In this document: in pieces, positions 1 through 54,234 of the stretch | Numbering within the stretch: the first letter of the stretch is position 1 | Layout of the letters: each line of letters opens with the position of its first letter | Source of the DNA: Eledone cirrhosa | Taxonomy: Eukaryota | Length of the DNA: 64,000 nucleotides | Reading direction: 5' to 3' | Assembly (NCBI GenBank): GCA_964016885.1 | Contig: OZ024746.1 | Span: forward strand, 68,572,001-68,636,000 | Notes under the pieces: generated by a model | What the model was told of the DNA's origin: nothing | The model's database searches: none | What the model saw: only the letters and a program-made list of their open reading frames with translations | Made by a program: the position numbers and the translations under genes

Positions 1-205
1 AGTAACAACAAAAAAGTTTAAGCAACGGTTCTACTCACTTTCCGTTGCTTAAACTTTTTTGTTGTTACTCTAGCGTCCCCCTTTATTTACGTGTCCCAAC
101 AACTTTTTTTAGCCGTTGTTCGCACCAACCCGAGGCATATGGCCCTTAAAGCGATGAAATGCCGAGGACGGTTGGAGGGTCACTGATGAAGGACTCACTT
201 TTTCA
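1..205. mobile_element. Fold-back element fragment (28-bp perfect hairpin 1-69, second stem-loop, CTGATGA core before (TA)n)
   Basis: agtaacaacaaaaaagtttaagcaacgg (1-28) is the reverse complement of 42-69; ccaacc...ggttgg stem 125-176; ctgatgaagg at 183-192 followed by (TA)n; cut by window edge. Confidence 0.5.
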
Positions 206-437
206 TATATATATATATATGGATAGAACAACTAAATGCAGGGAGTCATAAAAGTGAGAAATTTGAAAATTAACTAAAAAATAAACATTAAAATCCCATT
301 TCTCACTTTTATTGTCCATCTGATCAGCTGGACAGAAATTTGATTCTTCAGCTGATTAGCATCATTAAAACCCACTAATTGCACTATTTTCTTCTTTTTT
401 TTTATCACAACTGAATACCATTAATTAGGTATAGTAC

Positions 438-1004
438 TAATTGTTTCTACTTTTGGCACAAGGCCAGCAATTATCCCAGTACATTACTGGTATTTCATTT
501 TATCGACCCCCGTAAGGATAAAAGGCAAAATTAACCTTCGTGGGATTTGGACTCAGGACGTAAAGGGCCATAACTCAATGTTGCAAATCATGGCATCTGA
601 CGTATAGGTATAGTAATAATTGTTTGTACTTTTGGCACAAGGCCAGCAATTATCCCAGTGTATTACTGGTACTTTATTTTATCGACCCCATAAGGATGAA
701 AGGCAAAGTTAACCTCGGCGGGATTTGAACTCAGACTGTAAAGGTCCGTAACTCTATGCTGCAAAGTATGGCGTCTGACCCTCCACTGACACTACTAATC
801 CACCGCCCTAGTAATAATTGTTTCTACTTTAGGCACAAGGCCAGCAATTACCCAGTGCATTACTGGTACTTTATTTTATCGACCCCATAAGGATGAAAGT
901 CAGAGTCAACCTCGGCGGGATTTGAACTCAGATCGTAAAGGGACGTAACTATGCTGGAAAGCATGGCGTCCGACCCTCTACCGATACTGCCAATCCACCG
1001 CCCT
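438..1004 (-). mobile_element. Three head-to-tail copies of tRNA-derived SINE family A (~185 bp)
   Basis: Each copy matches the consensus with A box tggcagtatcgg, B box gttcaaatcc, central gttgactttgcctttcatccttacggggtcgataaaataaagtacc and 3' tagaaacaattatt; the first copy is 5'-truncated. Confidence 0.9.
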
Positions 1005-1387
1005 AGTAATAATGTTGATATTATAGAATAATTATAAATACTACAAAGACATGTTCTCTCTGCAATGCTGGTGCTACCATTAAGTCTAACAAGGCAGCCA
1101 CCTAAAGTGCAGAACTCAGAGAGGTGCCTGACTAAACCTTAAAGGATCACAATTTTATACACATTTCTATAATTAAATTAGATATATAAAAAAACGTTCC
1201 TGCAATCAATAAAGAAATTATGAAACATCTTTGCTATGTAACAGTAATGTTGAAATATTCAAATTAGATTGTATGATGTTATGAACTGTCACAGGATTTG
1301 GCATAGGTGAATGTAGGTTATGTAGTGGAAAATAACGGTTTAGTAATTGTCTTAGTGTGAAATGTCAAAAACTAGGTTCATCAGTTT

Positions 1388-1648
1388 AATAATAATAATA
1401 ATAATAATGAAATTATTGTGTACAGTGCTCAGGTGCACTACAACTTATCAAAGGTGTATGTATAGTACATAGAATAATGTACAAATGTCAGGAAAGTGAA
1501 CAGTGTATGAGTCATGATATACATGTGTGCGTGTGTATGGAGGGGGGATATCAGGTGTAGTGTTGGTGAAATTCAAGAACCATGGAGGTTTTAAAGGATG
1601 CAGTGTCTCAACAGCTAACAACTGATGCAGGTAGTTTATTCCATGCTT
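1388..1648 (-). mobile_element. 3' end of CR1/L2-group LINE with (TTA)n tail
   Basis: Minus strand encodes AWNKLPASVVSC*DTASFKTSM (WN.LP..VV....FK C-terminal motif); same sequence recurs at 13272, 25345, 42528, 52931. Confidence 0.75.
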
Positions 1649-2757
1649 TACAATAGTATAAGTTGGAATTATTTTATTTGTAACACATGACTGGAAGACT
1701 GATTGTACATTGTAGAGTTAACAACCTATAGAACCAAATAGCCAGGTGTTGGCTCTGACTCTCTGTATAAAAGTTAAATTTATGATGCATGTGTTAAAAG
1801 TGTGAACTCAATGGTACAAAAGAAAAATATGGTGACAGTGAGACACATTTAAGAGAATTTAAGTCAAGGATGAGCAACTAGTGGTGAAAAGTGTTGGTGT
1901 ATGATTTGTTAGTTAATAAATAAAAATTAGAAATATAGAAATAGTGATTTTCCATCATAAGGCAGCCATCTTGGATAGTGGTAGTAAAAATATAAATAAT
2001 ATGTTGCAAACATGATGATATAATGATAATGAAACACACCAGGGAGAATGAAAATATCACGTACTAGTGGAAAAAAATAGGCATGCATGACTTCATGTTT
2101 TTTTTTTATTTTAAATTAGAGAGATAGAAATAGTGACTTCCACATCATATTTTAAATATCATCAATCAATATCTGTTTTCCCTGTTAATAAGGGTCAGGG
2201 AAGTCTACATAGACCAAGTCAGTACTGAAACAGGACTACTGATTGCCATGACAGGCCAGGGCAGGAGTCTGCATCATGCTTCCTTATGGTCTTATATTCC
2301 ATTGAGTGCACAAGGGAGGTTATCATGTCTTTAACACAACTAAAAGGCCTTCCCAACCCTTTGTTTGACAGGTTTTCTAGGGCTGGATGCATGCATGATT
2401 TCTTAGCTTTTTAATTTCAAATTAGAAAAATATAAATAGTAACTTTCACATCACATTTTAGATAGAGGGAATAAAAATGTAACTGGTTTGTTGATAGACA
2501 TGATCACTACAAAATAAAATAAATAAGTTATATATGAATTGGTGGTATCAGGTAGATTGGTAATGTAGAACATTTTCTGGTAGCATTGGACAGATTTGTA
2601 ATGAAAGAGCTAATGAATTTTATAAAGAAATGACTATTAGTGTTAACGTTTTTATATATTATATTATACATGTATGCATATGTACTTATATGCATGTATG
2701 CATGTAAATTTACACACATTACTGTGTATATATTGAAAATATTATTGAATTTGACCA

Positions 2758-3135
2758 TAAAACATTTGTAGGTTTTACTGATTTTAACTACAAAATATTT
2801 GTAGGTTTTACTGAATTTAGCTACAAAACATTTGTAGGTTTTACTGAATTTAACTACAAAACATTTGTAGGTTTTACTGAATTTAACTACAAAACATTTG
2901 TAGGTTTTACTGAATTTAACTACAAAACATTTGTAGGTTTTACTGAATTTAGCTACAAAACATTTGTAGGTTTTACTGAATTTAAATAAAAAACATTTGT
3001 AAGTTTTACTGATTTTAGCTACAAAACATTTGTAGGTTTTACTGAATTTAACTTAAAAACATTTGTAGGTTTTACTGCTACAAAACATTTGTAGGTTTTA
3101 CTGAATTTAACTACAAAACATTTGTAAGTTTTACT
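2758..3135. repeat. 33-bp minisatellite, ~11 units
   Basis: Unit ctacaaaacatttgtaggttttactgaatttaa at 2787, 2821, 2854, 2887, 2920, 2953 and onward. Confidence 0.95.
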
Positions 3136-3900
3136 TAATTGAAATTAAATAGTTTGTTGGTTTTACTAAATTTAGATGAAATAGTCTGTAGTTTTACTGA
3201 ATTTACCATATATACTTAAATCTTATGTCTGAGAAATTGGTAAAAATCCAAATCCTGTTTACATAGAATTTGAAGTTGGTGAAAATCATCAAAATATTGA
3301 CCCTGAATGTAAGCCCTCACCCCTTCTACTATCGATTTTTTGGTTACATATTCCTCAGTTTACATTCAAGTATATACAGTAAATTAAAATGTTTTGTAGG
3401 TTTTAATGAATTTAAATTAAATGGTTTGTAGCCTTTACTGGTTTGACTGATATGCCCTTTCTTATAAAAGATAGTAATGTGTAAACTAAAAAAATTTGAC
3501 TGCTATTTTTAGCAGGTTGAATGACTGCATATAATGCCCCTCATTGGCTCATATAATACAGATTGGTTAATCTGGCACAAACATGACATATATAGAAATG
3601 AAAGAACTGAACTAAAATGAGCAAAACAACAAAATATGATTTATCTAAATATGTAAACCTATATTTATCTTCTTAAGGTGTTCAAAATACTGGGATATTT
3701 TATTAACCCTACAAATGATTATATTATCATTTTGTAAGGAAAATATTTATTGGTCTTTTTCAGCATATTTATGAGAAATGAGTACGTTTGATGTAAAAAA
3801 AATATATTTTCTTATGATCATGAATAGATGTATGCACAAATACATATGTATGTACATTTGTACATAAATAGATATATTTCTATATATATATAGATAGATA

Positions 3901-4065
3901 TGTTAAATTCCAACCACAACACCAAGCAGCTTTGGTTTGTGCCACAAGCCAAAACTGCTTGGCATTGCATCGGGATTTTACATATCTCTATATGCACTCT
4001 ACATCTCCCCATGTATTGAGTACTCATATGATTAGTGGTCACCTCGCTCTCAGCACTGCAGACTC
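3901..4065 (+). mobile_element. Short (TA)n-embedded element with hairpin and conserved tail motif
   Basis: Hairpin ccaagcagctttggtttgtg/cacaagccaaaactgcttgg 3922-3962; cactctac...gtattgagtactc tail similar to 4126-4190 and 53727-53790. Confidence 0.5.
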
Positions 4066-4087
4066 TCTCTCTCTATATATATATATA

Positions 4088-4198
4088 AGGAAAAGAAATC
4101 GAAAATGCTACTCGTTCCTATTACCCACTCTACTACCCTAAGTATTGAGTACTTTGGTGCATTATGGTCCACCTGGTTCCTTACCACATTTCTTTTGT
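4088..4198 (+). mobile_element. Short (TA)n-embedded element (tail fragment of the fold-back class)
   Basis: ccactctactaccctaagtattgagtactttggtgcattatggtccacctgg closely matches 53726-53777; its 5' part resembles the reverse complement of 54088-54110. Confidence 0.6.
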
Positions 4199-4796
4199 TA
4201 TATATATATATATATATATATACGTACATACAGACATACATACATACAAGAGTTGGAACCGGTAGATAGTATCAGCAATGGAAAGAGCAATGCAAACATT
4301 GTTTCCTTGGTCCAATTTGACAAGCTCCACCCCACTTAGTAAGCAAATGAGGTTTGGGATCTTGTTGATTTATCCTCTCTCTATATATATATATATACAT
4401 ATATACATACATACATATGTACATACATATATAATGGCTGCATCTTGATTTCAAGAATTGCCCCCTCTCACACATGAGTGGCACGAACATGACTCTTTAG
4501 CTCTGCCAAGGACTTATATTCCTTTCTGTATATGGTACAGTCATGAACATTACTTCCACTTTGGTTTCCTGTTTTGTTTATGTGAGTTTTCAAATGACAT
4601 TGGAATCCATTGGCTGAGGCACATTGTTTTCTTCACTTCCAACAGGAAGAAATGCCAAAAAGACTATAATCAGCAGCATTTTGTCACACTTCTATGATGG
4701 CTTCTATGCTTTACTGAGGCAAATCTAGTCACACTCGTTGCATTATGACATACATACATATAATACATACATACGAACACATGTACATATATAATC

Positions 4797-4843
<47 letters not shown>

Positions 4844-5073
4844 CACATACATCATCATCATCGTTTAAATGTAAATTATAATGGAATGTCTCAGATAAGA
4901 CTAGGCAGTGGTATTAGGAGGTAAATTTTGAAGGGTTAAAGGAGGTAGGAAAAAACAAGACAAAATCTTATGCATTCACAAGGCAAAGTCAATAAATTAT
5001 AGAGAAAGGATCACAGATCAATTTCTTTCATTTTTGTTCATTTGTTAATTTTTACAATAGAATTATATGGATA

Positions 5074-5844: not shown

Positions 5845-5849
<5 letters not shown>

Positions 5850-6286
5850 GTAAATTTGTATTCCAATGTTACTAAGTAGTTGCATTGGATGGAGTCAACC
5901 GACGTCGGAGATTGCTCAACGTATAATAAAGTGTGTTTTAAAATCCGGAGAAAATATGGAGAAGAAGTTTTTGAAATTTGAAATGGAAATGCGGGTATAA
6001 AGAATTTATTAGGTAACAATTGTTTCTGTAGTGTATGGGTTACCTATACCTCGCTATTTGAATAATATAAAAATATTATCATAAACCGAAGGTACACTGT
6101 AAGCAGACACACCATGTCGTCAGACCTTTGTATTGGAATGATATGAAAATTACAGTGTACCTTCGGTTTATGATAATATTTTTATATTATTCAAATAGCG
6201 AGGTATAGGTAACCCATACACTATAGAAACAATTGTTACCTAATAAATTCTTTATACCCGCATTTCCATTTCAAAAACTTCTTCTC
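5845..6286 (-). mobile_element. Fold-back element FB1 (~140-bp arms 5959-6102/6150-6286 plus one-sided tail), Penelope-like pLTR derivative
   Basis: Near-perfect inverted repeat flanked by (TA)n; contains a hammerhead motif; unpaired tail 5845-5958. Confidence 0.8.
6011..6127 (-). ncRNA. Type I hammerhead ribozyme motif with ~90-nt stem II
   Basis: Minus strand aggt-CTGACGA-[long stem tggtgtgt/atacacta, gtaccttcg/cgaggtat, ataatat/atattat]-GAAAC-AATT-GTT-acct; cleavage triplet is GUU. Confidence 0.65.
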
Positions 6287-12237: not shown

Positions 12238-12523
12238 CCAGGGAGTGTAACGTGCAGTTACTGTAGATGAGCACTCGGTGTTTAAATTCACGTCTGTAAT
12301 GAGGTGTAGAGCTAAATAGTGTGTAAATATAATAATACAAGGACAATTTGTTATGTCACTACGTTTATTGATATGTCATTACCACGGCAGAGGTCTGATG
12401 AGGTTTTGATTCCAGAGTCAGGCCAGATGGATATGGATCGAACCATGAGCTGATCAATAGTTAAACGCGCATCACCTATCAATAAACGTAATGAAGACAT
12501 AACAAATCGTCTTTGTTATTATA
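12238..12523. mobile_element. Fold-back element FB2 (arms ~12329-12373/12477-12523, tail 12238-12328)
   Basis: Imperfect inverted repeat between (TA)n tracts; hammerhead in loop followed by AATAAA. Confidence 0.7.
12391..12477 (+). ncRNA. Degenerate type I hammerhead with bulged, extended stem II
   Basis: aggt-CTGATGA-ggttttgat-tc-cagag-tcaggcc...gctga-tcaatagt-TAAAC-GCGC-ATC-acct (GAAA changed to TAAA, GTC to ATC). Confidence 0.6.
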
Positions 12524-15270: not shown

Positions 15271-15721
15271 ACACACTTACACCTCTCCAAGACAATGTCA
15301 CTGGACCGAGACCTTTGGCGCTACTCAGTAACAGAGAAGACCCGCCTTGCCAGTAGGCATCTCTAACAAAATACACCCCGTCCCGCCACCACCCCCACTC
15401 CATCCACACCACCCCGTTCTATGTAAAGTTATGTTGGTGCCGCGCCATCCAGGCCGAAACAAATGAGATCGTGTAGGTGTCACGACAAAAAAACACACAG
15501 TCCATGCTGTAATGTGGCCGTGTAGGCAACACGGTAAAAACCTCCCAGACCCACACTGTAAATGTGGTTGGTGTTAGGAAGGGCATCCAACTGTAGAAAA
15601 CCTGCCAGACAGTCCTATGCGAGCAAGACAATCACTCTTGCCTCAAGTGGGACTACCCCCATCCAAACCCATGCAAGCGTGGAACACGGACGTTAAACGT
15701 TGATGATGATGATGATGATGA
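15271..15721 (+). mobile_element. RTE LINE 3' fragment with (GAT)n tail
   Basis: [17 protein letters not shown] plus 3' UTR matching the 18181 copy. Confidence 0.9.
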
Positions 15722-17578: not shown

Positions 17579-18161
17579 ATATTTATTAAAATAACAGATT
17601 AAAGTTTAAGCAAAGAATCGCTGCTTTGACCCTTAACGGGATCTTCTGAAACTAACAAAGTCAATCTGTGAACGCAGAAGTGAATATTTAAAAAAATTGC
17701 GTGCAATTGTTCTCCCCGCTCCACATATGACGTATTATCTTTGTTCCATTCATTGCCAGAGAACGTCTCTATGAACTACCTAATAGAATATTAGTCTACG
17801 ACTTCTTTCATACCATAAACGTGGTTTTGTCTTTGCATGTAATTGTTTTTCACCGCTCCAAATAATGACGTATTATATTCGTTTTTTCCCGTTCTTTGAC
17901 AGGGAACATTTCCACGAACCAAAGTATCGTCTTCCTGTCTTCCTCCGGTTGCAACGCTTTTTGAAATATTCACTTCTGTGTTCACAGATTAACTTTGTTA
18001 GCTTCAGAAGATCCCGTTAAGGGTAAAAGCAGCGATTCTTTGCTTAAACTTTAATCTGTTATTTTAATAAATATTTGCTCTATGGTTCTTATATATTTGA
18101 TATATATTTATCCTTATCGAGCCCTCTTTGGATTTTAGTCTTCAAATTTATTATTATTACT
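17579..18161 (+). mobile_element. Fold-back element FB3 (~120-bp arms 17579-17705/17958-18074, tail to 18161)
   Basis: atttattaaaataacagattaaagtttaagcaaagaatcgctgc... is inverted at 18030-18073; tail ends in (TA)n; weak hammerhead-like cagaaga-tccc-gttaa-gggt-aaaa in the arm. Confidence 0.75.
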
Positions 18162-18180
18162 ATATATATATATATATTAC

Positions 18181-18781
18181 TCGAGAGAAGACTACGTTGG
18201 TATGGTCATGTGATGCGCATGAAAGACGACAGCTGTATAAAAAAGTACAGGGCGATAAAAATAGACGGTAGCCACAGAGTAGGCAGACCCAGAAAAACCT
18301 GGAACGACTTGATAAATTCTGACCTCACACACTTACACCTCTCCAAGACAATGTCACTGGACCGAGATCTTTGGCGCTACACAGTAATACAGAAGACCCG
18401 CAAAGCGAAACCTAGTCAGTAGGCACCTCTAACAAAAATACACCCCCCGTTCCACTACCCCCCACCCCCATCCACACCACCCCTTACAATGTAAAGTTAT
18501 GTTGATACCACAACATCCAGTCCGAAATAAATGAGGTCGTGTAGGTGTCACGACAAAAAACACACAGTCCACACTGTAATGTGGCCGTGTAGGTAACACA
18601 GTAAAAACCTCCCAGTACACACTGTAAACGTGGTTGGTGTTAGGAAGGGCATCCAGCCGTAGAAAACTCGCCAGACAGTTCTATACGAGCAAGACAACCA
18701 ATCTTGCCTCAAGTGGGAAAATTCCCGTCCAAACCCATGCAAGCGTGGAAAATGGACGTTAAACGATGATGATGATGATGA
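18181..18781 (+). mobile_element. RTE LINE 3' fragment
   Basis: RRLRWYGHVMRM...GRPRKTW...DRDLWR then 3' UTR and (GAT)n tail, set in (TA)n. Confidence 0.93.
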
Positions 18782-26860: not shown

Positions 26861-27218
26861 GTGTGTGTGTGTGTGTGTGTGTATTTGTGTGCATATATAT
26901 ATATATATTCTTGAAGAAACAGGGAGCTGTGTGATTACTTGATAAAGTGTATTTAAAAATAAGAGGAAAGCACAAACGGGGGACATTCCCATCATCAGTT
27001 ATCTGCTGGAGATGACAGACATTTCAAGGCATTAAAGACAATATGTCTAGCTCCAGTGCATCAATAACTATTGGAAGTTATAGGGCGGGGAAAGGAGAGA
27101 AAGAAAAATATATAGCAGAAGGGAAAAAAAAGAAGAAAAAAAATGCAGAGAACATACCGAAAAAGAGGGAAACATGAAAAGCATGTGCATGTATATAAGT
27201 AACCATATATATATATAT

Positions 27219-27556
27219 GGAGGCACATGGCTTAGTGGTTAGAGCATTGGCCTTGCAATCGAAAGGTTGTGAGTTCAATTCTCAGACAGGGTGATGTGTT
27301 GTTTCCTTGAGCAAGACACTTTATTTCACATTACTCCAGTTTACTCAGCTGTAGAAATGAGATGATAGGGACTGGGGTCCCTATCGTTCCACTGTAAAGT
27401 GGTCGTGGAGGTGACACGGCAAAAAAGCACCCAGCACTCACTGTAAATGAGGTTGGTGTTAGGAAGGGCATCCAGCTGTAGAAATCAAGCCAGAATCAGT
27501 TCCCGTCCCACCCTTGCAAGCAGGGAAAAGCGGACGTAAAATGATGATGATGATGA
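27219..27556 (+). mobile_element. SINE family B
   Basis: Full length, flanked by (TA)n. Confidence 0.93.
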
Positions 27557-28396: not shown

Positions 28397-28680
28397 CAAC
28401 CTCATTTACAGTGAGTGTTGGGTGCTTTTTTTCTGTGGCGCCTACACATCCACTTTACAGAGTGGGCTGGGTGCTTTTTTGCCGTGGCACCTCCACGACC
28501 ACTTTGCAGTGGAATGATATGGACCCCAGTCCCTACCATCATTTCTACAGCTGAGTAAACTGGAGCAATGTGAAATAAAGTGTCTTGCTCAAGGAAACAA
28601 CACATCACCCGGTCTGAGAATTGAACTCACAACCTTTCGATTGCAAGCCCAATGCTCTAACCACTAAGCCATGTGCCTTC
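28397..28680 (-). mobile_element. SINE family B variant (3' part missing, internal duplication)
   Basis: Head at 28680; two gggtgcttttt blocks. Confidence 0.88.
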
Positions 28681-28693: not shown

Positions 28694-29099
28694 GTAGATA
28701 TGTGTGCAACTGTAGTTACAGGTGGTTCGTTGGTTAAAGCACTCAATACTGTTACACGGTTCCATCTCATGTAGGGGTTATACTTCAGTGTATTCCAGGG
28801 TTAAGTTGGCTGTAATGTGCAGTGTGTACAAGTAGGTAGGAACATAGTCAAGGTTGTACCATAAATGAATTTTATTGTATATGACAATTGTCTCAATATC
28901 GATCAGCCCAGGATTCAATCAAAATGTTCAGGGCCTGACTCTGTACCGACATCTCATCAGATATGCGTTCATAGGTGCAGAACACATTCTAACAGTTAGA
29001 AAGTGTTCTGCACCTACGAACGCATTTGCAATTGATATTGAAACAATTGTCATATACAATAAAGTTCATTTATGGTACAACCTTGACTGTGTTCCTACT

Positions 29100-29104
<5 letters not shown>
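28694..29104 (-). mobile_element. Fold-back element FB4 (arms ~28826-28902/29031-29104, inner hairpin 28963-29025, tail 28694-28825)
   Basis: Nested inverted repeats between (TA)n tracts. Confidence 0.8.
28879..28964 (-). ncRNA. Type I hammerhead with bulged, extended stem II
   Basis: Minus strand atat-CTGATGA-gatgtcgg-ta-cagag-tcaggccc...gggctga-tcgatatt-GAGAC-AATT-GTC-atat; the other arm keeps GAAACAATTGTC (29040-29051). Confidence 0.7.
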
Positions 29105-29431: not shown

Positions 29432-29466
29432 ATGATGAAGGACTAGCTTCTGAAACGTTAAGACTC
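29432..29466 (+). ncRNA. Degenerate minimal hammerhead motif (Penelope-like)
   Basis: aTGATGA-agga-ctagc-ttct-GAAA-CG-TT-A-agact; first core C and the 5' strand of stem I are lost. Confidence 0.4.
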
Positions 29467-30249
29467 TTTTATTACTTCTTTTAAGCATTAACCTAATATA
29501 CTGTATTTGTAATATGTTGTCATCTGATATTCTTCTTTATTCTTTTTTTTTTTTAGATATAATACATACATACGTACGTACATACACAGATACATATATG
29601 CATACATACATACATACATACATACATACATACATACATACATACATACATACATGCATACATTACTTGTATCAATAATTCTGAATTGTTTGGGTTCATA
29701 AGTAACCTTTAAAAATGTATGCCAGTCGTTATAAAATATTTTAGTCCCCCTCAAACAATAGAAAGCAATTTCCCCTCAAATCTAAGTTCCTTTAATGTGC
29801 AACGGTACAATTCAGATGCAAGAAAACACTAAAGATTTAAGCTTTGAAATTATATAATGCTTCTCTATAAATTACTTTTTCAGTTGTTTATGTTAAAGGT
29901 TAACATTTACAAGTTATATATTTCATTGATAACTATTGAAAACTCAACATATAGTTGACCATTAGTGGGACAGTGTATCTGAATGTTTAAACTAATTACT
30001 TTCAGAGACTGTCATGTGGTCTTCGTATTTCTCTATAGATATATCTAAAGAAAGCTGAAGAGTAATCTCTATTGTTATTGCTTAACTTTTAACATCTTGT
30101 ACCACATGAAACCGCATTAACAAGACATTCACGAAATGTATAATACACCATTATGATTGCATCATATTAAAAATTAAAAGTCTAATACTGCAAATTTTCA
30201 CAATCTGCCCACCATTTTTTTTTCTTCCCGTCCTCACTACTAAGGGTCT

Positions 30250-35875: not shown

Positions 35876-35985
35876 TGATGATTTCTCATGAATGAAACAG
35901 TTCTAGTCCTGTAGAAGCTTCTCTATATTAAAACATTTATACTCTGCTATGTATTGAATACCTTACTTACTGTGATTAACCTCAA
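35876..35985 (+). mobile_element. Fragment of the FB7 family (one arm plus tail)
   Basis: Matches 53871-53975; tail also at 48790-48852 (minus). Confidence 0.75.
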
Positions 35986-36039
35986 ATGAAAACGAAAAAC
36001 GAAATTTCATTTCTCACTCTTAGTATGGCACTTACTTAA

Positions 36040-36630
36040 ATGTAAGTATGTATGTATACGTACATACATATATGTATACAGACGTACAGTAGCATGTATA
36101 TATATATATATATATATACATACATGCAGGTACACATACATATATGCACGCATCAGTTTAGCAGACGCTTATTATAGCGCTGCTTTGTTCGTTTGTCAAC
36201 AAACTGAACAGCCTGAATTTATGCCATACGGTGTTAAGGCAACCACGTCACCTTTTTGTTCAACACTGACACAGGAACGATGTACTAGTTTCAAGCTTGT
36301 TAGCTATCATCAGCACCGTTTACCCATCTGCCAGATAGTTGAACGTTCGAAAGTATATACTTTCCTTATGAAAATTAACGGCTGAGCAGATATTTGTGTC
36401 AGTGTTGAACAAAAAGGTGACGTGGTTGCCTTAACACCGTATGGCATAAATTCAGGCTGTTCAGTTTGTTGACAAACGAACAAAGCAGCGCTATAATAAG
36501 CGTCTGCTAAACTGATGCGTGCATATATGTATGTGTACCTGCATGTATGTATATATATATATATATATATATACATGCTACTGTACGTCTGTATACATAT
36601 ATGTATGTACGTATACATACATACTTACAT
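36040..36630. mobile_element. Fold-back element FB5, near-perfect ~234-bp arms (36040-36273/36395-36630)
   Basis: Arms mirror each other including the internal microsatellite; 121-bp loop contains a hammerhead. Confidence 0.88.
36276..36320 (-). ncRNA. Intact minimal type I hammerhead ribozyme
   Basis: AACGGTG-CTGATGA-t-agc-taacaa-gct-t-GAAA-CTAG-TA-CATCGTT: 7-bp stem I, full core, palindromic stem III, GUA triplet. Confidence 0.8.
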
Positions 36631-36678
36631 ATATATATATATATATATATATTTCATTTATATATATATATATAATAT

Positions 36679-36990
36679 GGAGGCACATGGCCTTGCAATC
36701 GAAAGGTTGTGAGTTCAATTCTCAGACCGGGTGATGTGTTGTTTCCTTGAGCAAGACACTTTATTTCACATTGCTCCAGTTTACTCAGCTGTAGAAATGA
36801 TGTTAGGGATTGGAGTCCATATCATTCGACTGCAAAGTGGTCGTGGAGGTGCCACGGCAAAAAAGCACCCAGCACTCACTGTAAATGAGGTTGGTGTTAG
36901 GAAGGGCATCCAGCTGTAGAAATCAAGCCAGAATCAGTCCCCGTCCCACCCTTGCAAGCAGGGAAAAGTGGATGTAAAATGAAATGAAAT
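36679..36990 (+). mobile_element. SINE family B with ~20-bp head deletion
   Basis: ggcacatgg joined directly to ccttgc; (GAAAT)n tail. Confidence 0.9.
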
Positions 36991-37027
36991 GAATATAAAA
37001 TCAAAAGATGGTTAAAAGAGTTCCCTG

Positions 37028-37098
37028 TATTTTATTATGCGCATTTCAAAAACAAATATCATCATGGGATGATATTTGCGTTCTCATCAGATAAAATA
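37028..37098 (-). ncRNA. Type I hammerhead (left arm of FB6)
   Basis: tattttat-CTGATGA-gaacgcaaatatcatc-ccat-gatgatatttgttttt-GAAA-TGCGCA-TA-ataaaata. Confidence 0.8.
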
Positions 37099-37120
37099 GG
37101 GAGACATGATATGAAGCTTA

Positions 37121-37335
37121 AAAAACACTTGCGAGCAGTGAAGTGTTAAATCAACATATGTCGAAAAATACTTGCAAGCAGTGAAGTGTTAAATCAACAT
37201 ATGTCGAAAAACACTTGCGAGCAGTGAAGTGTTAAATCAACATATGTTGAAAAACACTTGCGAGCAGTGAAGTGTTAAATCAACATATGTCGAAAAACAC
37301 TTGCAAGCAGTGAAGTGTTAAATCAACATATGTTG
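37121..37335. repeat. 43-bp tandem repeat x5
   Basis: aaaaacacttgcgagcagtgaagtgttaaatcaacatatgtcg at 37121, 37164, 37207, 37250, 37293. Confidence 0.95.
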
Positions 37336-37388
37336 ATTTAACACTTCACTGCTCGCAAGTGTTTTTTAAGCTTCATATCATGTCTCCC

Positions 37389-37459
37389 TATTTTATCTGA
37401 TGAGAACGCAAATATCATCCCATGATGATATTTGTTTTTGAAATGCACATAATAAAATA
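37389..37459 (+). ncRNA. Type I hammerhead (right arm of FB6)
   Basis: Same as the left arm but with GAAA-TGCACA-TA. Confidence 0.78.
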
Positions 37460-37583
37460 CATGGAACTCTTTTAACCATCTTTTGATTTTATATTATTTA
37501 TACTCCAGTCCTATAAACTGTTGAGTGCTACTTATCCGATATTTGCATTGCTTTATTGTACTACAATAAAACTCACCTCCTAC

Positions 37584-37616
<33 letters not shown>

Positions 37617-37753
37617 TATACTTAATACATTAACAGAGAAAGCTATTAGCGATACTCCGACCAGCTGTCATCTCACTCAACAAACATTAGGAAATACCTA
37701 AGTATATTCCCAATCATACGTTTGGGGTGCTAACTATATTGTATTATGTGGAA

Positions 37754-39469: not shown

Positions 39470-39472
<3 letters not shown>

Positions 39473-39660
39473 GAAAATGAACAAACAAAACACAGGAGAC
39501 AATTGTACACACTTGGTGGAAGAGGAGGAGGTTTCGATGTTCCGGATAGAAGTCCTTCATCAAGAAAGTTCAGATAGGGGAAGAACAGATACTCCGAGGA
39601 GTAGTAAGGGAAGGTTAAGAAAGGAAGTTAAAAAGTTAAAAATAAAGCATGAAAAAAATA
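39470..39660 (-). mobile_element. Penelope-like 3' fragment with degenerate minimal hammerhead
   Basis: Minus strand tttc-tTGATGA-agga-cttcta-tcc-GGAAC-ATC-gaaa (39532-39567); abuts (TA)n. Confidence 0.5.
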
Positions 39661-39947: not shown

Positions 39948-42334
39948 ACTCTGTGTATGTCTGTGTGCAAGCGCGTGTGTGTTACTGTGTTTACATCACA
40001 TGACTTAATTGTTTCGCAAAGAGAGACCAAGAAAATAAGTACTGGGGTTGATATGATTTAAGGTGGTGCTCCAGCATAGCCACTGTTTAATGACTGAGAT
40101 TAGTAAAAGAATTTATATCTGTAATATTTTTCTTCTTGTGACATGTTTCAGTATTTAACTTTAAACAATCTCAACAATGAAACAAAATCAAAATATTTAA
40201 CATAATGAAATAATGTTATAAATATCTGTAAATTTATGTATCAAAATAGAAATAAAAAGTTACAATTTCCCTTTCCATGGATTCCTCTAGTCAGTATAAA
40301 TTTTGTTTAAACATTTCTCAACAAGCACAGCCTACAGTTACCACGCTACACTATCACTACAATAGCAGTTTCACCAATTATGTCGGGCACCTAGCTAAGA
40401 TAAATCTGTCAATCACTATGTAATGGAACCTCCCCAGATTCTACAGAACTTAGCCTGCTAGTTAGTAAAAAAAAATCTGCCAAATATTCCTCAAAATCAC
40501 ACACTACTGTCTTAAACAGTGTCACAAAATTAGCTAATGAATTGGTATGGAACTGACAGCTCTCCTGTAAAGATGCCAACTACTGAAACCTGACACTAAA
40601 CTTTAAACCTAAACCTCCTGGTATTATGAAATCTTATTATTTATCCTTTAAATCAAAATCTACTTTAACATAATTTCTTGTTGTAATTTTAAAGAACAAT
40701 CTTCAGATTTTTGTTATAAAGTTTTACTTTATTATTTCAGAAGCCATAACAATAACAAAAATGCATTTTTTTTTTTTAATGTTCTACTCGAATGCTAGCA
40801 TAGTCTCATTGCAACTGCAACACCACGAGAAATTTAATTAGTGAAATAACTGAAGAGGCTTTTCTGTCTCTAGTGACCTTCTTCTATTCTTCCAGCAAAA
40901 ATTCCTGTCCATAAACATAAGGTTTCAGCTATGAGTAAATTGTAACTAATCAAACATATATGCATGTAGCTTTCTAAATATATAATTATATTAGTTCTTT
41001 CTGCCAGAACCGATTTACGTTATAACAATTGAATCAGGCAGCAGACATACTTTCTGCACAGTCAGTGTAGTTGTGCTTTCATCAAGAACAAAAGCAAAAA
41101 ATAAAAACCGCAATAACATTCACTATAAAGACTTCTTCCTCCTGATTATATCAATGAAATATCAATAACTGTGTAATCCTCCAAATAACAATTTTTCTTC
41201 GTCAAATTCAATCCTTTTATTTTGATTCATTGACAGTTTCAAAATGGCTGCTTGTAATGTTATAGGGGGTTCATGTATAAACAGTCCATTTTGTTAAACA
41301 AAGCTTTATAATTTTGTTTGACTAAGGTAGAAAATCCTTACATCTAAGTATCTATTGTTGCTGTCAGTCATAATAGCTGACACTATAGTCTGCATTCATG
41401 AGAAATACATAGAAATTATCTAAGTTTATCTTTTCTATTCAAAGATGAAGATAGAAATCTGATTAGAAAAGATTAGAATATATAAATTCTAAAGTTAGGA
41501 ACAACTTTCCAAAAGACCATCACAGAAAGGTGTAATGTTTTGCACACTGAATATATAAACTGAAATAAAAATAAATGCTTCCATTCTGCATTTGTAATAA
41601 GTAATCCAAAATTTTCAATAATATGAATATCTATTTATAAATGATCCAGTGGTTATACTATAAAAGGGATAAATATTTAGCATAGAAGCCTGTAAATATT
41701 GACTGCAGGCATGGCTGTGAATACAGAAAGTTTGCAGTGCAGCTATGTGGCTTCAAGTTAAATCACACACACTGTACAGCACATTGAACAAATGTCTTAT
41801 ATCAGGTTGACCAAAGCCTCATGATTTGAGAAAAGTTTGATACATGGAACTTCTATAGAACTCAACCAAAAGACTGTTCCTATTCTTGAGTACTAGACTT
41901 AATTTGTCCCCCAGTTATATATCATAACTTGGTTCTGTGGGATATTTAGCATAAAAGCCTGCAACAGTTATAAAAGTAACAGAAAACATTATAGCATAAC
42001 TATAACACTGCACCAGAGATGTAGTGGGATACAGGCAGGCAGGCTAACAAAGAAGGAGTGTGTATGAAGAAGATACACAGGAGTAGTAACAGAGGTGAGT
42101 ATTTTGAAAGCAAAGTAGCCAGATGGAGAATGGTGTAGAAACAGTTCAATTTGTTATTACCTCTGCTAACAACATATCGATTCTTTAACATATTGATTCT
42201 TTCTCCAAGTGAAGGACAGATTGTACGATGCTTATGTATGAATTTCAATACTGTATGATAGTAAAACATGGATATTGAATGCAGAGGTTGTGTAAAGGGT
42301 GGAAAGAAATGAGGTTAGTATGATAATATGATAA

Positions 42335-46733: not shown

Positions 46734-47025
46734 TATATATATATAACCAAATTAAAAGATATAGAGAGAGAAAGAACCATATATCATAGAAGAAACACAG
46801 TATATTGTATATATATATACCAAATACATATTCTATAGAAGAATATGTACACAGATGGAATCATAAATGAAACCTTATAACGCTATTTCATACCTGGAAA
46901 GTGTAGCTAAAAGTATTATGGCTCTAGATAAAATCTATTGAGCTTACTTATTGAGGAACACAAAATTCTAAACGTTTGATATGTTTTGATTGATCATTTG
47001 TGTGTGTATATATATATATATATAT

Positions 47026-47130
47026 TTATTAAAATAACAGATTAAAGTTTAAGCAAAGAATCGCTCTTTCACCCTTATATATTTATCCTTATCGAGCCCT
47101 CTTGGGATTTTAGTCTTCAAATTTATTATT
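47026..47130 (+). mobile_element. Internally deleted copy of FB3
   Basis: Left ~50 bp matches 17581-17634; right part matches 18102-18158. Confidence 0.85.
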
Positions 47131-47136
47131 ATTATT

Positions 47137-48733: not shown

Positions 48734-48852
48734 TATTATATATATATATAAATGAAATATATATATATATATATATATATTAAAAATTTATTACGGGTTC
48801 AATCGAGGTTAATCACAGTAAGTAAGGTATTCAATACATAGCAGAGTATAAA

Positions 48853-49118: not shown

Positions 49119-49699
49119 TAACAATGCAAATTAACCAAATACAGTGAAAGTCCTACAGTATATATTACTGCAATTCATCAACTGATATTTATATATTATA
49201 CTAAATAACTACCTTTGGTAAACCATAACATAATTGGAAAAATATAGTGTGTATTTATTTCAGAAATTTCATCATGTTATATTAATAAGTATCTTTGGTC
49301 AATTACTAAAATGACTTCTGTGAAATCTATATTTATATATATGATTTTTCAACGTATGTTCGCTATACTAATTGGGGAGGGAGAGAGAGACATATATATA
49401 TATGAGATGTGAACATTCAGCTATTGCCAAGTTTTCAACTGTGATGTCTGTTGCAATGCTGTTTAGAAAGTCTTTTATCTTATGTATTGCAAGCTCTGCT
49501 TCAATTTGTAATATAAGTGTTTCTTTCTTATTTATTTAATTTTGATTTAGTAAATAGTGTATGTGACTGAGTGCACTTGCTTTTTGGTTTTTAATTTAAT
49601 CAAGGAGGGAATAACAGTATGCATGACCCCTCTTAAAGTCTATGTGTTTGATGTAAGAGAGGAGAAAATATTCTCATATTGGAGACTTGGCCTAAATTT

Positions 49700-49960
49700 T
49701 ACAACAGAAACTCACCAACAGAGAATTGTTTCAGCAGCTTCCACCAGTAATAGAAAAGTTAAACTTGCAGATCATTGTGTTCATTACCATAAGGAGATAG
49801 CAAGTGATCTTGTTCTGTGTTAAATATCAGATGGATACACAAACAGGGATAGAAGTAAAATTACATTGACAACTTACTAGAAGATATTGGAGTGGATAAT
49901 GTAGGAAAGCTCAGGATGCTGATGATGGATAGAGAGCTTTGGAGGGCACATGTAAAGACA
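49700..49960 (+). mobile_element. Ancient RTE-X-like LINE C-terminal remnant
   Basis: RKVKLADHC...EIASDLVL and YIDNLLEDIGVDNVGKLRMLMMDRELWR match RL.FAGHC and YID.L..D.G....L...M.DR..WR motifs. Confidence 0.65.
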
Positions 49961-50029
49961 GATGGGCAGCCTGTCAGTTGGCATAGTTATATAGATAAAG
50001 TGGACTTCACTAAAAGCACCCAAGAGTCA

Positions 50030-50465
50030 GATCATCATAATCATCATCATCATCATCATTTTTACGTCAATTTTTCCATGCTCGCATGGGTTGGGTGGGT
50101 CCTTTTCAGCACAGCACCTCTCCACTCACTGCATTCCTTCGTCATCTCCTCTGTGAGTTTCAGTGATTTGAGATCAGCTCTTGCCATCTCTGTCCATGTC
50201 TTCCTTGGTCTACCTCCACTGCAGCTTCCTTCCACTGAGATTTCTTTGCACTTCTTCACCCAGCAATCATCATTCATGTGCATCACATGTCCATACTAAT
50301 GAAGTCTTCTCTCTTGTACGCTCCTTTGGATTCCTCTTAAACCTAGTTCTCTCTCAGTTCATCCATTTTCTTTCACATTTACATTGCACATCCAACAAAA
50401 CATGGTTGCTTTATTTCTCTCTCGCCACTGCATAACAGTAGTTAGTTGAAACAAAATGGTCTCTT
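50030..50465 (-). mobile_element. RTE LINE 3' fragment (second subfamily)
   Basis: GHVMHMNDDCWVKKC...GRPRKTW followed by (GAT)n tail. Confidence 0.85.
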
Positions 50466-51997
50466 TTCTTGAGAATGTATAGTAACATGCTGTTATCTTA
50501 CTAGGTGGGTACCCATAAAAAGAAAAGTACAGAAAAATACTAGAAATAGCAATGAAATACACTCAATTACATCTTACCTAACCTAAAAGTTAAGATAGGG
50601 CTTCATTGCCAATCTACTAATCGAAAGAATCTAAGAAGAAAAATTAATCATTTCTAAATAATCATAAAATCACAGGTTAAGATTAGTTGATTAAACCAAT
50701 CCTTGTACTTAACAAGTTTTTTATTTTATCAACTCCAAACAAATGAAAAGTAAAGTTGACATTGGCAGGATTTCACCCACTTCTGAACGTAATGAACTAT
50801 AAGTAAATAACATAAGCTATTTTGTTGAATGTTCTAATGATTCTATCAAGTCAACAACAATAGCAACAACTCCACACATTGAAAAAGAATCTAAATATTC
50901 AAGACATAATACTCGTATATTTTTAATGTCAAATTTTCAGGCTGTAAATTTTTTTGCCAGGTAATCTTAAATGTTTAAAATATTGCATTTTTAATTCTGC
51001 TTAAAAACATAATTTATTTCCTCTTTCTTAAATATCAGTAAAGAATTGAGAATCGATTGATATGAAATTTAAAAAAATATAAATAAATAAGATAAAATAA
51101 AATGAAAAATATATTTCTTTTATTCAAGAGATATCTTGCAATATAAAAAAACTATTGAGAAATAATGGTACAGGGTGGGGAAGACATGGTGGAAAAGTTA
51201 AATGACAGTAGAGAAAATTTTAGGAAGAAGCAATTTTTCTTGTCTGTCTGTGCTGGTTTAGAAACTGACCTAACTTTACGATACTGTCAGTGCAGTAACA
51301 TCATGTTGGTTTACACTTTTCATACACTCCTTAGACATCACAGCATGCTTCTTAACTGTTCTAAGTAGTTGCATCATCCTCTAAAGAACAATGTATTTCT
51401 ACAGGCAGCATCATGTTTTTATAATGGCCTATATATTTAAAATGCTGAGTTGCTACCATCGTAAGTGCAAATTTCATAGAGATTTCCAAACATGAGTGGT
51501 AGCATGGAATAAAGAATCTGTAATTCTAAAATGTAACTAGATAGATAAACAAATAAATAAAGTTTATTTTATTTGTTATAAATAGTGCATTGCATGTAAA
51601 AACAGTGTAAAAGGTTTATAGACTTCCAGCAGTTTCAACGACGAGTACTCCAGTTGTTTGATTGATGGTACAGTCTACTCATTAATCTAATGTGTTAGTG
51701 AATAAGTTATTCCACAGACACATGTACACTTAACACAATTCTCAGGGCAATTCAATGTGACATAACATGTGACAATGCTAACCCTTCGAATTACAGATAC
51801 AATCCACTTGACAGGCTTCCAAACAGTTTCTGTCTACCCAATTTCAGACACAAGACTTGTGTCAACACAAAGTTATGGTAAAAGAGACTTACCCATGGAA
51901 TTGAAACCATACCCTCATGATTGTGAAGTAAACCTTTTAACCATTCAGTTTTGCTACCTCCAATAAACACTATGCTATAGAAGGTGAGCTGTTGCAA

Positions 51998-52314
51998 TAT
52001 ATATATATAAATGTGAGCAGCTTCCATCCGTCACACAGTGTGTGTGTGTGTGTGTGTGTAAATGGAAGGAAGCGGGTGGTGAAAAAACCATAGCAAAACA
52101 GCAGCTGGCGTTCCATTTGCTATGCTGTGTATGAGTGAATGTGTATGTGTGTATTTGTGTGAATGTATGTCTGTGAGTGTGTATTTTTGTAAGTGTGCCT
52201 GTGTTTGCACATTTATATTTATATACTCATACATATAAATGTGTGCATATGCACATACACACATACACACATGCACACACATATACATCAGCGTGTTGAA
52301 AAAAATTCTATTAG
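51998..52314 (+). mobile_element. Second copy of the Helitron-like repeat
   Basis: Aligns end to end with 14208-14554; subterminal hairpin tcagc-gt-gttga. Confidence 0.55.
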
Positions 52315-52930
52315 TTTAAAATTCCAGCTGCTGTAACTACTACAACAGTTGTCACTTACAATTGAGCATGACTTAGTAGTATGTACTATGCTTTTGCTAG
52401 GGGTTTTAGATGTCCATACAATAACCAGCAGACACACTTTTGGCACTCTCTTCCTTGATTCAGTGGAACATTCAGGATGTGACAGCTAGAACAAGGAGGG
52501 TACTTTTTTTATCGACCCTTAAAGGATGAAAGGCAAAGTGGACCTTGGCAGGATTTGAACACAGAACAGAGAGACAGGGAACAAATACCCAATGCTCTAA
52601 TGACTCTGCCAGTTGTTGGAATTTAACATTTCATTATATTGCTAAATTAGACAACAAAAGAGCAAGCTTCTATGCTATCACTCAACTTACTAAAGATAGT
52701 ACCACAAACTCACTCATGCCTCATCTTATTATCATCATCATCATCATTTTACATCCACTTTTCCATGCAAGCAGGGTTTGAGAGAAATGTTTTGAGATGT
52801 CCCTTTTCTGATGCCAACCCTTTTAATCTTCCTATACAACATATAGGGACATAGTCTTAAAAAAGCCATGAAGGAGACATTGAACAATGTAGTCCTGGAT
52901 ATAGTTCTAAAAATAAGATGTGTTGATCAT

Positions 52931-53383
52931 AATAATAATATAATAATAATAATATAATAATAATGAAATTATTGTGTAAAGTGCTCAGGTGCACTACAAC
53001 TCGTCAAAGGTGTATGTATTGTACATAGAATAATACACAAATGTCAGGGAAGTGAATAGTGTATGAGTCATGGTATACATGTGTGTATGTGTATGGAGGG
53101 GGAACATCAGGTGTAGTGTTGGCGGATCTCGGGAAGCATGGAGGCCTTAAAGGATGCAGTGTCTCGACAGCTAACAACCGATGCAGGTAGTTTGTTCCAT
53201 GGAGGCCTTAAAGGATGCAGTGTCTCGACAGCTAACAACCGATGCAGGTAGTTTGTTCCATGGAGGTTTTAAAGGATGCAGTGTCTCAACAGCTAACAAC
53301 CGATGCAGGTAGTTTGTTCCATGCTTCAGCAACTCTGAGCGTGAATGAAATTATTGTGTACAGTGCTCAGGTGCACTACAACT
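52931..53383 (-). mobile_element. CR1/L2-group LINE 3' end with internal 60-bp triplication and second tail fragment
   Basis: TLRVAEAWNKLPASVVSC...; atggaggccttaaaggatgcagtgtctcgacagctaacaaccgatgcaggtagtttgttcc x3. Confidence 0.85.
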
Positions 53384-53664
53384 GGTTGGAATATTTCTTG
53401 ATAGGTCTAAGCAACAATAACTTACATTGTTTTAAGCTAATAGGGAGCCTCTATGTGGTTTCTGAACTTACTAGGAATAACAAACAAATACCCTCAATTA
53501 CACCTTGTCATTTTCAAAAAGGAAAGGACACATTAGATAATGCAGTCCAAGATACCCATTAAGGCAGGATGGTCACAGCTGGACTGTCATTCACCATGGG
53601 TCTGCTTGGACTAGACTGACATGGAACTTGAACAACAAGAACAACAACAGAAATATATATATAT

Positions 53665-53790
53665 ATGAAAAGATTCAAGATCCCCCTCGGCTGAGCTCCG
53701 GCCGTTTCAACAACTTTCATATTATCCACTCTACTACCCCAAGTATCGAGTACTCTGGTGGGTTATGGTCCACCTGGTATCTTACCACAC
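53665..53790 (+). mobile_element. (TA)n-embedded tail fragment of the fold-back class
   Basis: Matches 4126-4190; contains gtatcgagtactc. Confidence 0.6.
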
Positions 53791-53810
53791 CCTCTCTGAT
53801 ATATATATAT

Positions 53811-53995
53811 AAATGGCTTCTACAGGACTAGAACTGTTTCATTCGGTAGAAATCATCTGGAGGCCCCTGTTGATTTCTACCAAATGAAACAGTTCTAGTC
53901 CTGTAGAAGCCATTTCTATATTAAATATGTATACTCTGCTATGTATTGAGTACCTTCCTTACTGTGGTTAGCCCCGATTGAACCCAGGATAAACA
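53811..53995 (+). mobile_element. Fold-back element FB7 (45-bp arms 53811-53855/53871-53915 plus tail)
   Basis: Inverted repeat between (TA)n tracts; degenerate ctgttga...gaaacagtt core; gtattgagtac in tail. Confidence 0.75.
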
Positions 53996-54010
53996 TATAT
54001 ATATATTCTA

Positions 54011-54046
54011 CTTTTGAAAAGCAGAAGAACTGCGAAACCGGTAAAG
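54011..54046 (+). ncRNA. Degenerate minimal hammerhead motif
   Basis: ctt-TTGAAAA-gcag-aagaa-ctgc-GAAA-CCGG-TA-aag: all three stems and palindromic stem III present, two core substitutions. Confidence 0.5.
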
Positions 54047-54180
54047 GAACCAAATAAATATATATATATTTGTTTAAAAATAAGACTCCAGTTGCATTTT
54101 CGATTTCATCTTTTTTTCTTTATACTTTCACTCGTGTAGAACACCTCGGTTATTTTTCATTTTGTAAAAAAAAACCTTAC

Positions 54181-54234
<54 letters not shown>

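What the first reader, a model, noticed from the sequence alone, without database searches (positions are those of the whole stretch)
1..54190. A diverse class of (TA)n-associated fold-back elements carrying hammerhead ribozymes
Seen: elements at 1-205, 5845-6286, 12238-12523, 17579-18161, 28694-29104, 36040-36630, 36992-37583 and 53811-53995 share one architecture: inverted arm, loop, arm, usually an unpaired tail on one side, (TA)n at one or both junctions, and no ORF. They have little mutual sequence similarity. Five have a complete or near-complete type I hammerhead (CUGANGA / GAAA-palindrome-UH); the others have partial cores, and isolated relics lie at 29432, 39532 and 54011. Established: Penelope-like elements carry minimal type I hammerheads with palindromic stem III in their pLTRs, often leave inverted pLTR copies with a 3' tail, and some clades insert in microsatellites. 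Inference: many distinct PLE-derived or retrozyme-like families use the same (TA)n niche, at roughly one element or relic per 4 kb here. Whether they are truncation products or self-propagating non-autonomous units is open.
Basis: partly seen in the sequence, partly recalled or inferred. Interest (0 to 1): 0.88.

Follow-up and report, generated by a model that had tools for sequence, protein, structure and literature searches.

The report
Penelope stumps hide a rearranged hammerhead
The small palindromes are ordinary truncated ends of Penelope-like retrotransposons, but one of them carries a knotted, rearranged hammerhead ribozyme fold that also appears in Naiad retrotransposons, a group reported to lack canonical hammerheads.

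Summary
The fold-backs, (TA)n junctions and type I hammerheads are real (3 intact cores in the elements; 0 in 300 shuffles). They are best read as 5'-truncated ends of Penelope-like elements (PLEs): hammerheads read outward, copies of one family share outer ends but differ at the centre, and public contigs run on past one centre. That picture is published (Cervera 2014; Craig 2021), and this scan reported it before in a shark. Self-propagating units are not supported; no RT/endonuclease ORF could be linked. The new part: element 1's 'partial core' is a complete hammerhead core in non-circular strand order, with an extra two-helix junction between A9 and position 10.1. A second, 55%-identical example at 27092-26986 fits all six helices (10 compensatory pairs of 26). 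Read by eye, 14 of 29 Naiad consensus 3' ends in Craig's supplement carry a non-circularly permuted hammerhead (8 of this split-core form, 6 type-CSG), although that paper found no canonical hammerhead in Naiads. Five literature searches found no report of this. Cleavage is untested.

The parts
1..205 (+). E1: fold-back (arms 1-28/42-69, cut by window start) with 136-nt tail ending at (TA)7; Naiad-type end inferred
93..194 (+). Split-core non-circularly permuted hammerhead candidate: P1 93-96/191-194, P0 hairpin 99-119, stem II 120-123/151-154, helix 'I' 125-130/170-175, stem III 134-138/159-163, predicted cut after 139, stem I 140-146/176-182, GAAA 156-159, CUGAUGA 183-189
   Evidence: one search printed an equally scoring P1 partner at 75-78; 93-96 is the one adjacent to P0
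26908..27205 (-). Solo insert between two (TA)n runs, no fold-back; second split-core hammerhead at 27092-26986, predicted cut after 27042, GAAA 27025, CUGAUGA 26998
5846..6286 (.). E2: fold-back with left tail; CUGACGA on minus, GAAA half on plus; no complete ribozyme shown
12238..12523 (+). E3: type I hammerhead 12395-12473 with one core change and long stem II; inverted arm and tail on the left
17579..18160 (+). E4: fold-back with right tail, no ribozyme found
47023..47131 (.). Second copy of the E4 family: same two outer ends, about 110 nt instead of 580, different centre
28694..29104 (-). E5: type I hammerhead 28960-28883 (one core change; the right arm holds the intact GAAA half), left tail
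29432..29470 (+). Type I relic, first core base lost, directly after a T run
   Evidence: read by eye
36037..36633 (-). E6: direct copy truncated at 36389, intact type I hammerhead 36313-36283 in the loop, inverted arm from 36395; arms include about 110 nt of microsatellite-like DNA
36987..37583 (.). E7: two type I hammerheads on opposite strands (37090-37036 minus, 37397-37451 plus), central 44-nt tandem units, right tail
39470..39562 (-). Degenerate type I relic with 3' end at (TA)n
   Evidence: read by eye
53812..53995 (+). E8: both arms start at the catalytic core; Hydra-like stem III; right tail
35877..35981 (+). E8-family copy without fold-back, starting inside the core at a TA run
48780..48850 (-). 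E8-family 3' fragment with the same tail end at (TA)n
54008..54187 (+). Solo insert with U3-A8 variant type I hammerhead at its 5' end
   Evidence: read by eye; variant described
61482..61660 (-).

Best explanation
These are dead, stump-sized insertions of many endonuclease-bearing Penelope-like retrotransposon families that target (TA)n. The GIY-YIG endonuclease nicks AT-rich DNA, reverse transcription starts at one of two fixed internal sites near the RNA 3' end (with or without the tail), stops early, and two short 3'-end cDNAs are joined head to head; this gives fixed outer ends, a one-sided tail, outward-reading hammerheads and a centre that is built anew at each insertion. Most families are canonical PLEs with minimal type I hammerheads that need a dimer. 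Element 1 and the insert at 26908-27205 are ends of Naiad-type PLEs whose 3' UTR folds into a double-pseudoknot hammerhead in non-circular order, with stems long enough to work as a monomer and with the P1/P0 junction inserted between A9 and 10.1. Shown here: anatomy, polarity, variable centres, covarying helices. Inferred: the enzyme, the insertion mechanism (from published PLE work), the Naiad assignment (from architecture only) and catalysis.
For: Hammerhead sense points outward in E3, E5, E6, E7, E8. E4 and its copy at 47023 share both outer ends with different centres; E8 is a fold-back, 35877 is not, 48787 shares the tail end. Contigs from X1 (48 loose ends), X4 and X5 continue past 36389, and one RAD joint (36331 to 36453, 3-nt overlap, 119 reads, 1 start) shows another centre. 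Both laid families are abundant in the runs. Published: dual minimal hammerheads 100-700 bp apart on opposite strands and single motifs from truncated PLEs, U3-A8 variant (PMC4209133); inverted 5'-truncated copy, tail and (TA)n preference, Octopus Hydra and Naiad families (PMC8557442); two internal RT start sites bounding the tail (PMC11167929). Permuted core: 2 sites in the window, 0 of 400 shuffles with 2 and 3 of 400 with 1; four further helices jointly matched in 1 and 0 of 5000 shuffles; 20 of 26 pairs kept in both, 10 compensatory, slid controls at most 2; 0 of 41 phage/prokaryote loci with the same core words form stems I and III.
Against: Tails measure about 75-140 nt, longer than the published 30-40. 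Direct copies nearly all start within about 85 nt upstream of the core, which a short template would also give. E6's arms both contain microsatellite-like DNA, not explained by simple truncation. No contig or read piece listed spans a whole fold-back. E2 and E4 have no complete ribozyme. Covariation by tool rests on two sequences and a structure derived from them; stem II is only 4 of 6 and 5 of 6 pairs; a nested fold competes in the MFE.
Confidence: 0.8

Rival explanations
1. Some families are short non-autonomous units (solo pLTR or retrozyme-like RNAs) that are transcribed, self-cleave and are copied by PLE enzymes in trans; the inverted half may still be made at insertion.
For: 5' ends cluster near the core (E8 arms, 35877 and 29432 start at the core itself); very high abundance in runs; microsatellite-like DNA in both E6 arms suggests a read-through template; non-autonomous PLE derivatives are published.
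Against: No head-to-tail hammerhead tandem in the window; centres differ between copies; in a read-through RNA of E7 the hammerhead is fully paired into the arm; E6 family sequence continues past its centre.
Confidence: 0.13
2. The palindromes are MITEs or other TIR DNA transposons, hammerheads incidental.
For: E4 has 125-nt arms round a 242-nt interior and no ribozyme.
Against: One-sided tails, solo copies without inverted arms, variable centres and hammerhead enrichment; no fixed target duplication seen by eye, although TA runs would hide a TA duplication.
Confidence: 0.03
3. Assembly fold-back artefacts.
For: E6 arms are 236 of 237 identical; no listed piece bridges a whole element.
Against: Arms differ by substitutions and indels (90-99.6%), carry asymmetric tails and biologically coherent polarity.
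Confidence: 0.02
4. The permuted motif is a conserved structure (for example an RT-binding signal or a decayed ribozyme) that does not cleave, because the junction between A9 and 10.1 breaks the core.
For: Eckert et al. state that known alignments have no more than one or two inserted nucleotides beside CUGAnGA; hammerhead cleavage was dispensable for insertion of a Poseidon element in vitro; stem II is imperfect in both window copies.
Against: All catalytic nucleotides and an NUH triplet are kept in both window copies and, by eye, in Naiad consensi from ctenophore, cnidarians, ostracod and cephalopods; sister families carry uninterrupted type-CSG cores, a form shown to cleave.
Confidence: 0.25

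Closest known systems
[quoted passage not shown]
   Same: Type I order, palindromic stem III, unpaired base after A9, U3-A8 variant, high sequence heterogeneity, pairs on opposite strands 100-700 bp apart, mostly single truncated copies.
   Different: E3 and E5 have a roughly 60-nt stem II domain with shared inner words; no flanked ORF shown here.
Hydra-clade PLEs, including Hydra-1_Obim (Craig et al. 2021, PMC8557442)
   Same: (TA)n target, hammerhead near the 3' end; by eye E6 and E8 follow the Hydra pattern and E5 shares the stem II base with Hydra-1_Obim.
   Different: No window motif matched the consensus set exactly; clade not assignable without protein.
Naiad PLEs (Craig et al. 2021)
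   Same: (TA)n target, inverted truncated copies, pyrimidine-rich 3' UTR; same six-helix motif by eye in 8 consensi, including both Octopus families that show it.
   Different: Published as lacking canonical hammerheads ('HHR_core', 'HHR_half_core', unresolved); E1 ends only 16 nt after the core.
Type-SGC and type-CSG non-circular hammerheads (Eckert et al. 2023, PMC10085705)
   Same: Double-pseudoknot core, blocks out of circular order, short linker from stem I to stem II, extra helix joining stems I and II.
   Different: Reported from metatranscriptome, metagenome and RefSeq searches, not tied to a retrotransposon in the sections read; block C is assumed unbroken, whereas here the stem II strand lies at the 5' end and P1/P0 interrupt the core between A9 and 10.1.
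Non-LTR retrozymes (bioRxiv 10.64898/2026.07.22.740005)
   Same: Type I hammerheads, PLE-derived, non-coding.
   Different: Defined by head-to-tail tandem units; here copies are inverted or solo.

Membership tests
EN+ Penelope-like elements | Single ORF with telomerase-like RT and GIY-YIG endonuclease | not testable with these tools
   No genome held; no such ORF in the window; relatives not found in viral or metagenome scans.
EN+ Penelope-like elements | 5'-truncated inverted copy with 3' ends facing outward | tested here: met
   Outward polarity in E3, E5, E6, E7, E8; truncation at 36389.
EN+ Penelope-like elements | Tail at one end only (30-40 bp in print) | tested here: inconclusive
   One-sided tail in 7 of 8, but about 75-140 nt long.
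EN+ Penelope-like elements | Minimal type I hammerhead with palindromic stem III near the 3' end | tested here: met
   (E3, E5, E6, E7, 61576); not met for E2, E4.
EN+ Penelope-like elements (Hydra, Naiad, Neptune types) | Insertion bias for (TA)n | tested here: met
   5 of 9 tail-less arm ends at TA runs, background 1.6%.
Non-LTR retrozymes | At least two head-to-tail units each with a type I hammerhead | tested here: not met
   No same-strand tandem among the hits.
Non-LTR retrozymes | Linear or circular small RNAs | not testable with these tools
   No RNA holder listed.
MITE / TIR transposon | Fixed terminal inverted repeats at both ends in all copies | tested here: not met
   Tails and solo copies.
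Type-SGC hammerhead (Eckert 2023) | Order cleavage site, GAAA, CUGANGA with stems I and III and intact core nucleotides | tested here: met
Type-SGC hammerhead (Eckert 2023) | Stem II strand directly 3' of CUGANGA (block C unbroken) | tested here: not met
   1 bp in E1, 3 bp in the second site; the better partner lies upstream of helix 'I'. Hence a variant, not a member.
Hammerhead ribozyme | Site-specific self-cleavage | not testable with these tools
   Needs in vitro assay.
Naiad PLEs (for E1 and 26908-27205) | N-terminal GIY-YIG, CxC motif, C-terminal RT | not testable with these tools
   Only the 3' UTR architecture could be compared, by eye.

The most novel reading that the evidence does not exclude
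Naiad retrotransposons do carry hammerheads, in non-circularly permuted form: type-CSG in nematode and spider families and a so far undescribed split-core form, opened at an extra helix between A9 and 10.1, in ctenophore, cnidarian, ostracod and cephalopod families. These would be active monomeric ribozymes present in very many copies in animal genomes and invisible to current descriptors; E1 and 27092-26986 are genomic examples.
Probability: 0.55. Interest if true: 0.85.

Novelty: new variant of a known kind. Interest (0 to 1): 0.68.

Why it matters
The fold-back class itself only illustrates known PLE biology, and warns that such stumps can pass as MITEs or miRNA hairpins. The permuted motif matters more: it would correct the view that a major invertebrate PLE clade thrives without hammerheads, move non-circular RNA permutations from rare environmental RNAs into animal chromosomes, multiply the known type-CSG examples (two in Eckert 2023), and show that the catalytic core tolerates a whole junction after A9. 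It is cheap to test and gives a monomer-competent ribozyme for asking what hammerheads do in PLE transposition.

Tried and rejected
Rfam: whole window, the 150 listed of 201 matches held no hammerhead, mostly microsatellite miRNA noise; local scans gave only a weak HH9 match on E6 (E 0.053) and no ribozyme for E1, E2, E4. The E3/E5 motif in viral and metagenome contigs gave 3 and 38 matches, none with the matching 3' half. The permuted-core words gave 6 viral and 35 prokaryote loci, 0 of 41 with the stems; they served as a control. No RNA holder listed. About 24,000 RAD loose ends at 36448-36449 were rejected as an element boundary because they begin at an AATTC, the likely restriction end (inference). 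The steep depth fall into the centre of E7 was rejected as proof of truncation, since reads on the 44-nt units can be assigned to the outer copies. Type I hits at 40706 and 35183 were treated as chance (0.67 expected at that stringency). A plain SGC reading of E1 was dropped because stem II fails. A 22-codon open frame ending just before the E6 hammerhead gave no Pfam hit. Lunse 2017 was not held; my recalled name for an octopus SINE found no paper. Sequence look-ups among earlier findings gave only unrelated phage notes or nothing.
Full report
Setting. The window is 28-42% GC per 2 kb and full of microsatellites. No whole genome is held. Its SINEs look to me like octopus repeats; that is recall, and no call shows it. 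None of the 65 frames of 90 aa or more looks like a PLE protein; 10 frames sent to Pfam gave no hit above a cut-off.

Observation. Self-BLAST and arm alignment confirm all eight inverted repeats, 90-100% identical between arms, seven with a one-sided tail. A type I descriptor found 4 intact-core sites in the window (both arms of E7, the loop of E6, and a new solo insert at 61576); 1 of 25 window shuffles had one such hit. Within the eight elements it found 3 intact and 5 near-intact sites against 0 of 300 and at most 1 (4 of 300) in shuffles. E8 and the relics at 29432, 39532 and 54011 were missed by the descriptor and are read by eye. Five of 9 tail-less arm ends abut a TA run, background 1.6%. 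A tRNA-derived SINE uses the same runs, so the niche is not special to these elements.

What the fold-backs are. In every element with a readable type I motif the sense strand points outward, so both outer ends are 3' ends. Copies tell how the centre arises. E4 (580 nt) and a copy at 47023-47131 have the same two outer ends and a different, much shorter middle; E8 is a fold-back, its relative at 35877 has no inverted arm, and 48787 shares the tail end. A later deletion could also explain the E4 pair. Four public runs laid on 36000-37700 cover both families deeply; summed contig depth is no copy number, but in X1 it is within an order of magnitude of the neighbouring SINE. Contigs of X1, X4 and X5 match the E6 hammerhead region, two of them with no difference over 108-120 nt, and run on past 36389, where this copy stops and, after five other letters, turns round. 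One RAD joint (36331 to 36453, three letters shared, 119 reads from one start) shows a different centre; only 15 of 184 joints were listed. The majority letter at 37447 restores the palindromic stem III of E7, and a common variant at 37083 turns a G-U into an A-U pair in stem II. No listed piece spans a whole element. In a read-through RNA the E7 hammerhead is buried in the arm duplex, and stem III of five motifs forms only as a dimer.

Comparison. Cervera and de la Pena 2014 (PMC4209133; parts 1-2 of 4 read) describe minimal type I hammerheads in PLE repeats, pairs 100-700 bp apart on opposite strands, single motifs from truncated PLEs, the U3-A8 variant, and no monomer but low dimer cleavage. 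Craig et al. 2021 (PMC8557442; passages; supplement searches and parts 1, 2, 52) describe the inverted 5'-truncated copy, the 30-40 bp tail, (TA)n targeting and Octopus Hydra and Naiad families. Frangieh et al. 2024 (PMC11167929; parts 1-2 of 4) show two internal RT start sites bounding the tail. Arkhipova et al. 2013 (PMC3846280; parts 1-2 of 5) show inverted pLTRs and solo pLTRs. An O. vulgaris annotation lists 31 recently active PLE families (PMC13282606; passages). The retrozyme preprint (part 1 of 5 and passages) defines retrozymes by tandem units, absent here. So the class as framed is known. Against my reading: no ORF link, tails longer than published, 5' ends clustered near the core, microsatellite-like DNA in both E6 arms, and no ribozyme in E2 or E4.

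Element 1. Its GAAA lies upstream of its CUGAUGA. The cleavage triplet, stem III (5 bp) and stem I (7 bp) fit if the order is site, GAAA, CUGAUGA. A descriptor for that order found two sites in the window, 138-189 (+) and 27043-26992 (-), with identical spacing; 3 of 400 window shuffles had one hit and none had two. Eckert et al. 2023 (PMC10085705; sections 4, 13, 14, 15 and part 1 of 18) named such non-circular orders SGC and CSG, showed cleavage, and assumed that CUGAnGA and its two flanking strands cannot be separated. Here the strand after CUGAUGA does not make stem II in E1. Reading Naiad 3' ends in Craig's supplement showed why: the stem II strand lies upstream, behind a hairpin (P0), and the strand after CUGAUGA pairs with the sequence before that hairpin (P1). 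I noted this layout before looking upstream of the second site, which then showed P1, P0, stem II and the linking helix. These four helices were jointly matched in 1 (E1) and 0 (second site) of 5000 shuffles. The two cores align without gaps, 42 of 77 letters identical; 20 of 26 pairs hold in both, 10 by change on both sides, 1 of 500 shuffles reaching that and slid controls at most 2. This rests on two sequences and a structure derived from them. Of 41 phage and prokaryote loci with the same core words none forms stems I and III of 5 bp.

Naiads. I saw the last 450-600 nt or so of 29 of the 54 Naiad consensi, chosen first for the authors' 'half core' flag; record names are inferred from file order, and all reading is by eye. 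Eight show the split-core form (Bfor with a 2-bp stem I, 3_Chem, Amil, 2_Movir, 4_Dst, Obim, Ovul, Esco with weak stem II; Obim and Ovul are near identical). Six show an unbroken type-CSG core with stems I, II, III and the linking helix (Parc, 1_Nbra, 2_Nbra, 3_Nbra, Hpol, Smim). Fifteen show neither in the part seen (Mmer, Omin, 2_Dst, 3_Dst, 1_Chem, 2_Chem, 4_Chem, 1_Movir, CGi, Sglo, Mcor, 1_Skow, Tama, Dcar, Sdum). Seven of the 8 flagged 'half core' families are explained. [quoted passage not shown] The Naiad label for the two window inserts rests on this shared architecture alone.

Is it in print? Searches listed no paper linking Naiads or any retrotransposon to a non-circular hammerhead, or describing a junction after A9. 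PMC13725137 (passages) says variants with additional helices have been reported and cites three papers; I found no such passage in one of them (PMC10162972, passages), one is Eckert, and I did not identify the third. Lunse 2017 was not held, most subscription journals are outside the library, and I did not open the supplements of Eckert or Cervera, which may bear on this.

Verdict. The finding as written is known PLE debris and would score about 0.25. It leads to a probably unreported, directly testable ribozyme architecture, hence 0.68 and 'new variant of a known kind'. Confidence: truncated PLE ends 0.8; the six-helix fold being real and conserved about 0.9; active and unreported together about 0.55.

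Noticed in passing
window 27218-27550, 28400-28680, 36677-36990, 60980-61310, 62094-62415: A tRNA-derived SINE of about 320 nt whose ends often abut (TA)n; neighbouring inverted copies create further long inverted repeats and nest with the PLE stumps.
   Followed up: partly
window 36040-36150 and 36520-36630: Both E6 arms include about 110 nt of degenerate microsatellite, differing by one TA unit: either 3' read-through from an earlier site or inverted copying of target DNA.
   Followed up: partly
window 12395-12460 and 28960-28895: E3 and E5 share a long stem II domain whose inner TCAG can pair either downstream or with the core's CUGA, a possible on/off fold.
   Followed up: partly
window 37118-37330: About five head-to-tail 44-nt units at the centre of E7, almost uncovered by other reads; may be RT stuttering at the truncation point.
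   Followed up: no
window 1-69 and 17579-17620: E1 and E4 arms share a terminal word of about 17 matching letters although their tails differ.
   Followed up: no
window 18048-18422, 57647-57943, 15280-15356: Repeated short frame resembling the C-terminus of an RTE-type LINE (label recalled; no Pfam hit).
   Followed up: partly
PMC8557442 supplement, 3' ends read as Naiad-1_Movir and Naiad-4_Chem; CGi, Sglo, 1_Skow, 1_Chem, 2_Chem: The first two look twister-like (from recall); the others share a different conserved structured motif. Naiad subclades may have swapped ribozyme classes.
   Followed up: no
L013, L015, L017, L018, L020, L033, L034, L041: Related metagenome loci with CUGAUGAG and GAAAC and flanking stems, possibly a hammerhead variant unrelated to this window.
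   Followed up: no
run X5 on window 36270-36389: A run labelled as another organism holds the E6 hammerhead region with no difference over 120 nt: young shared family or mixed DNA.
   Followed up: no
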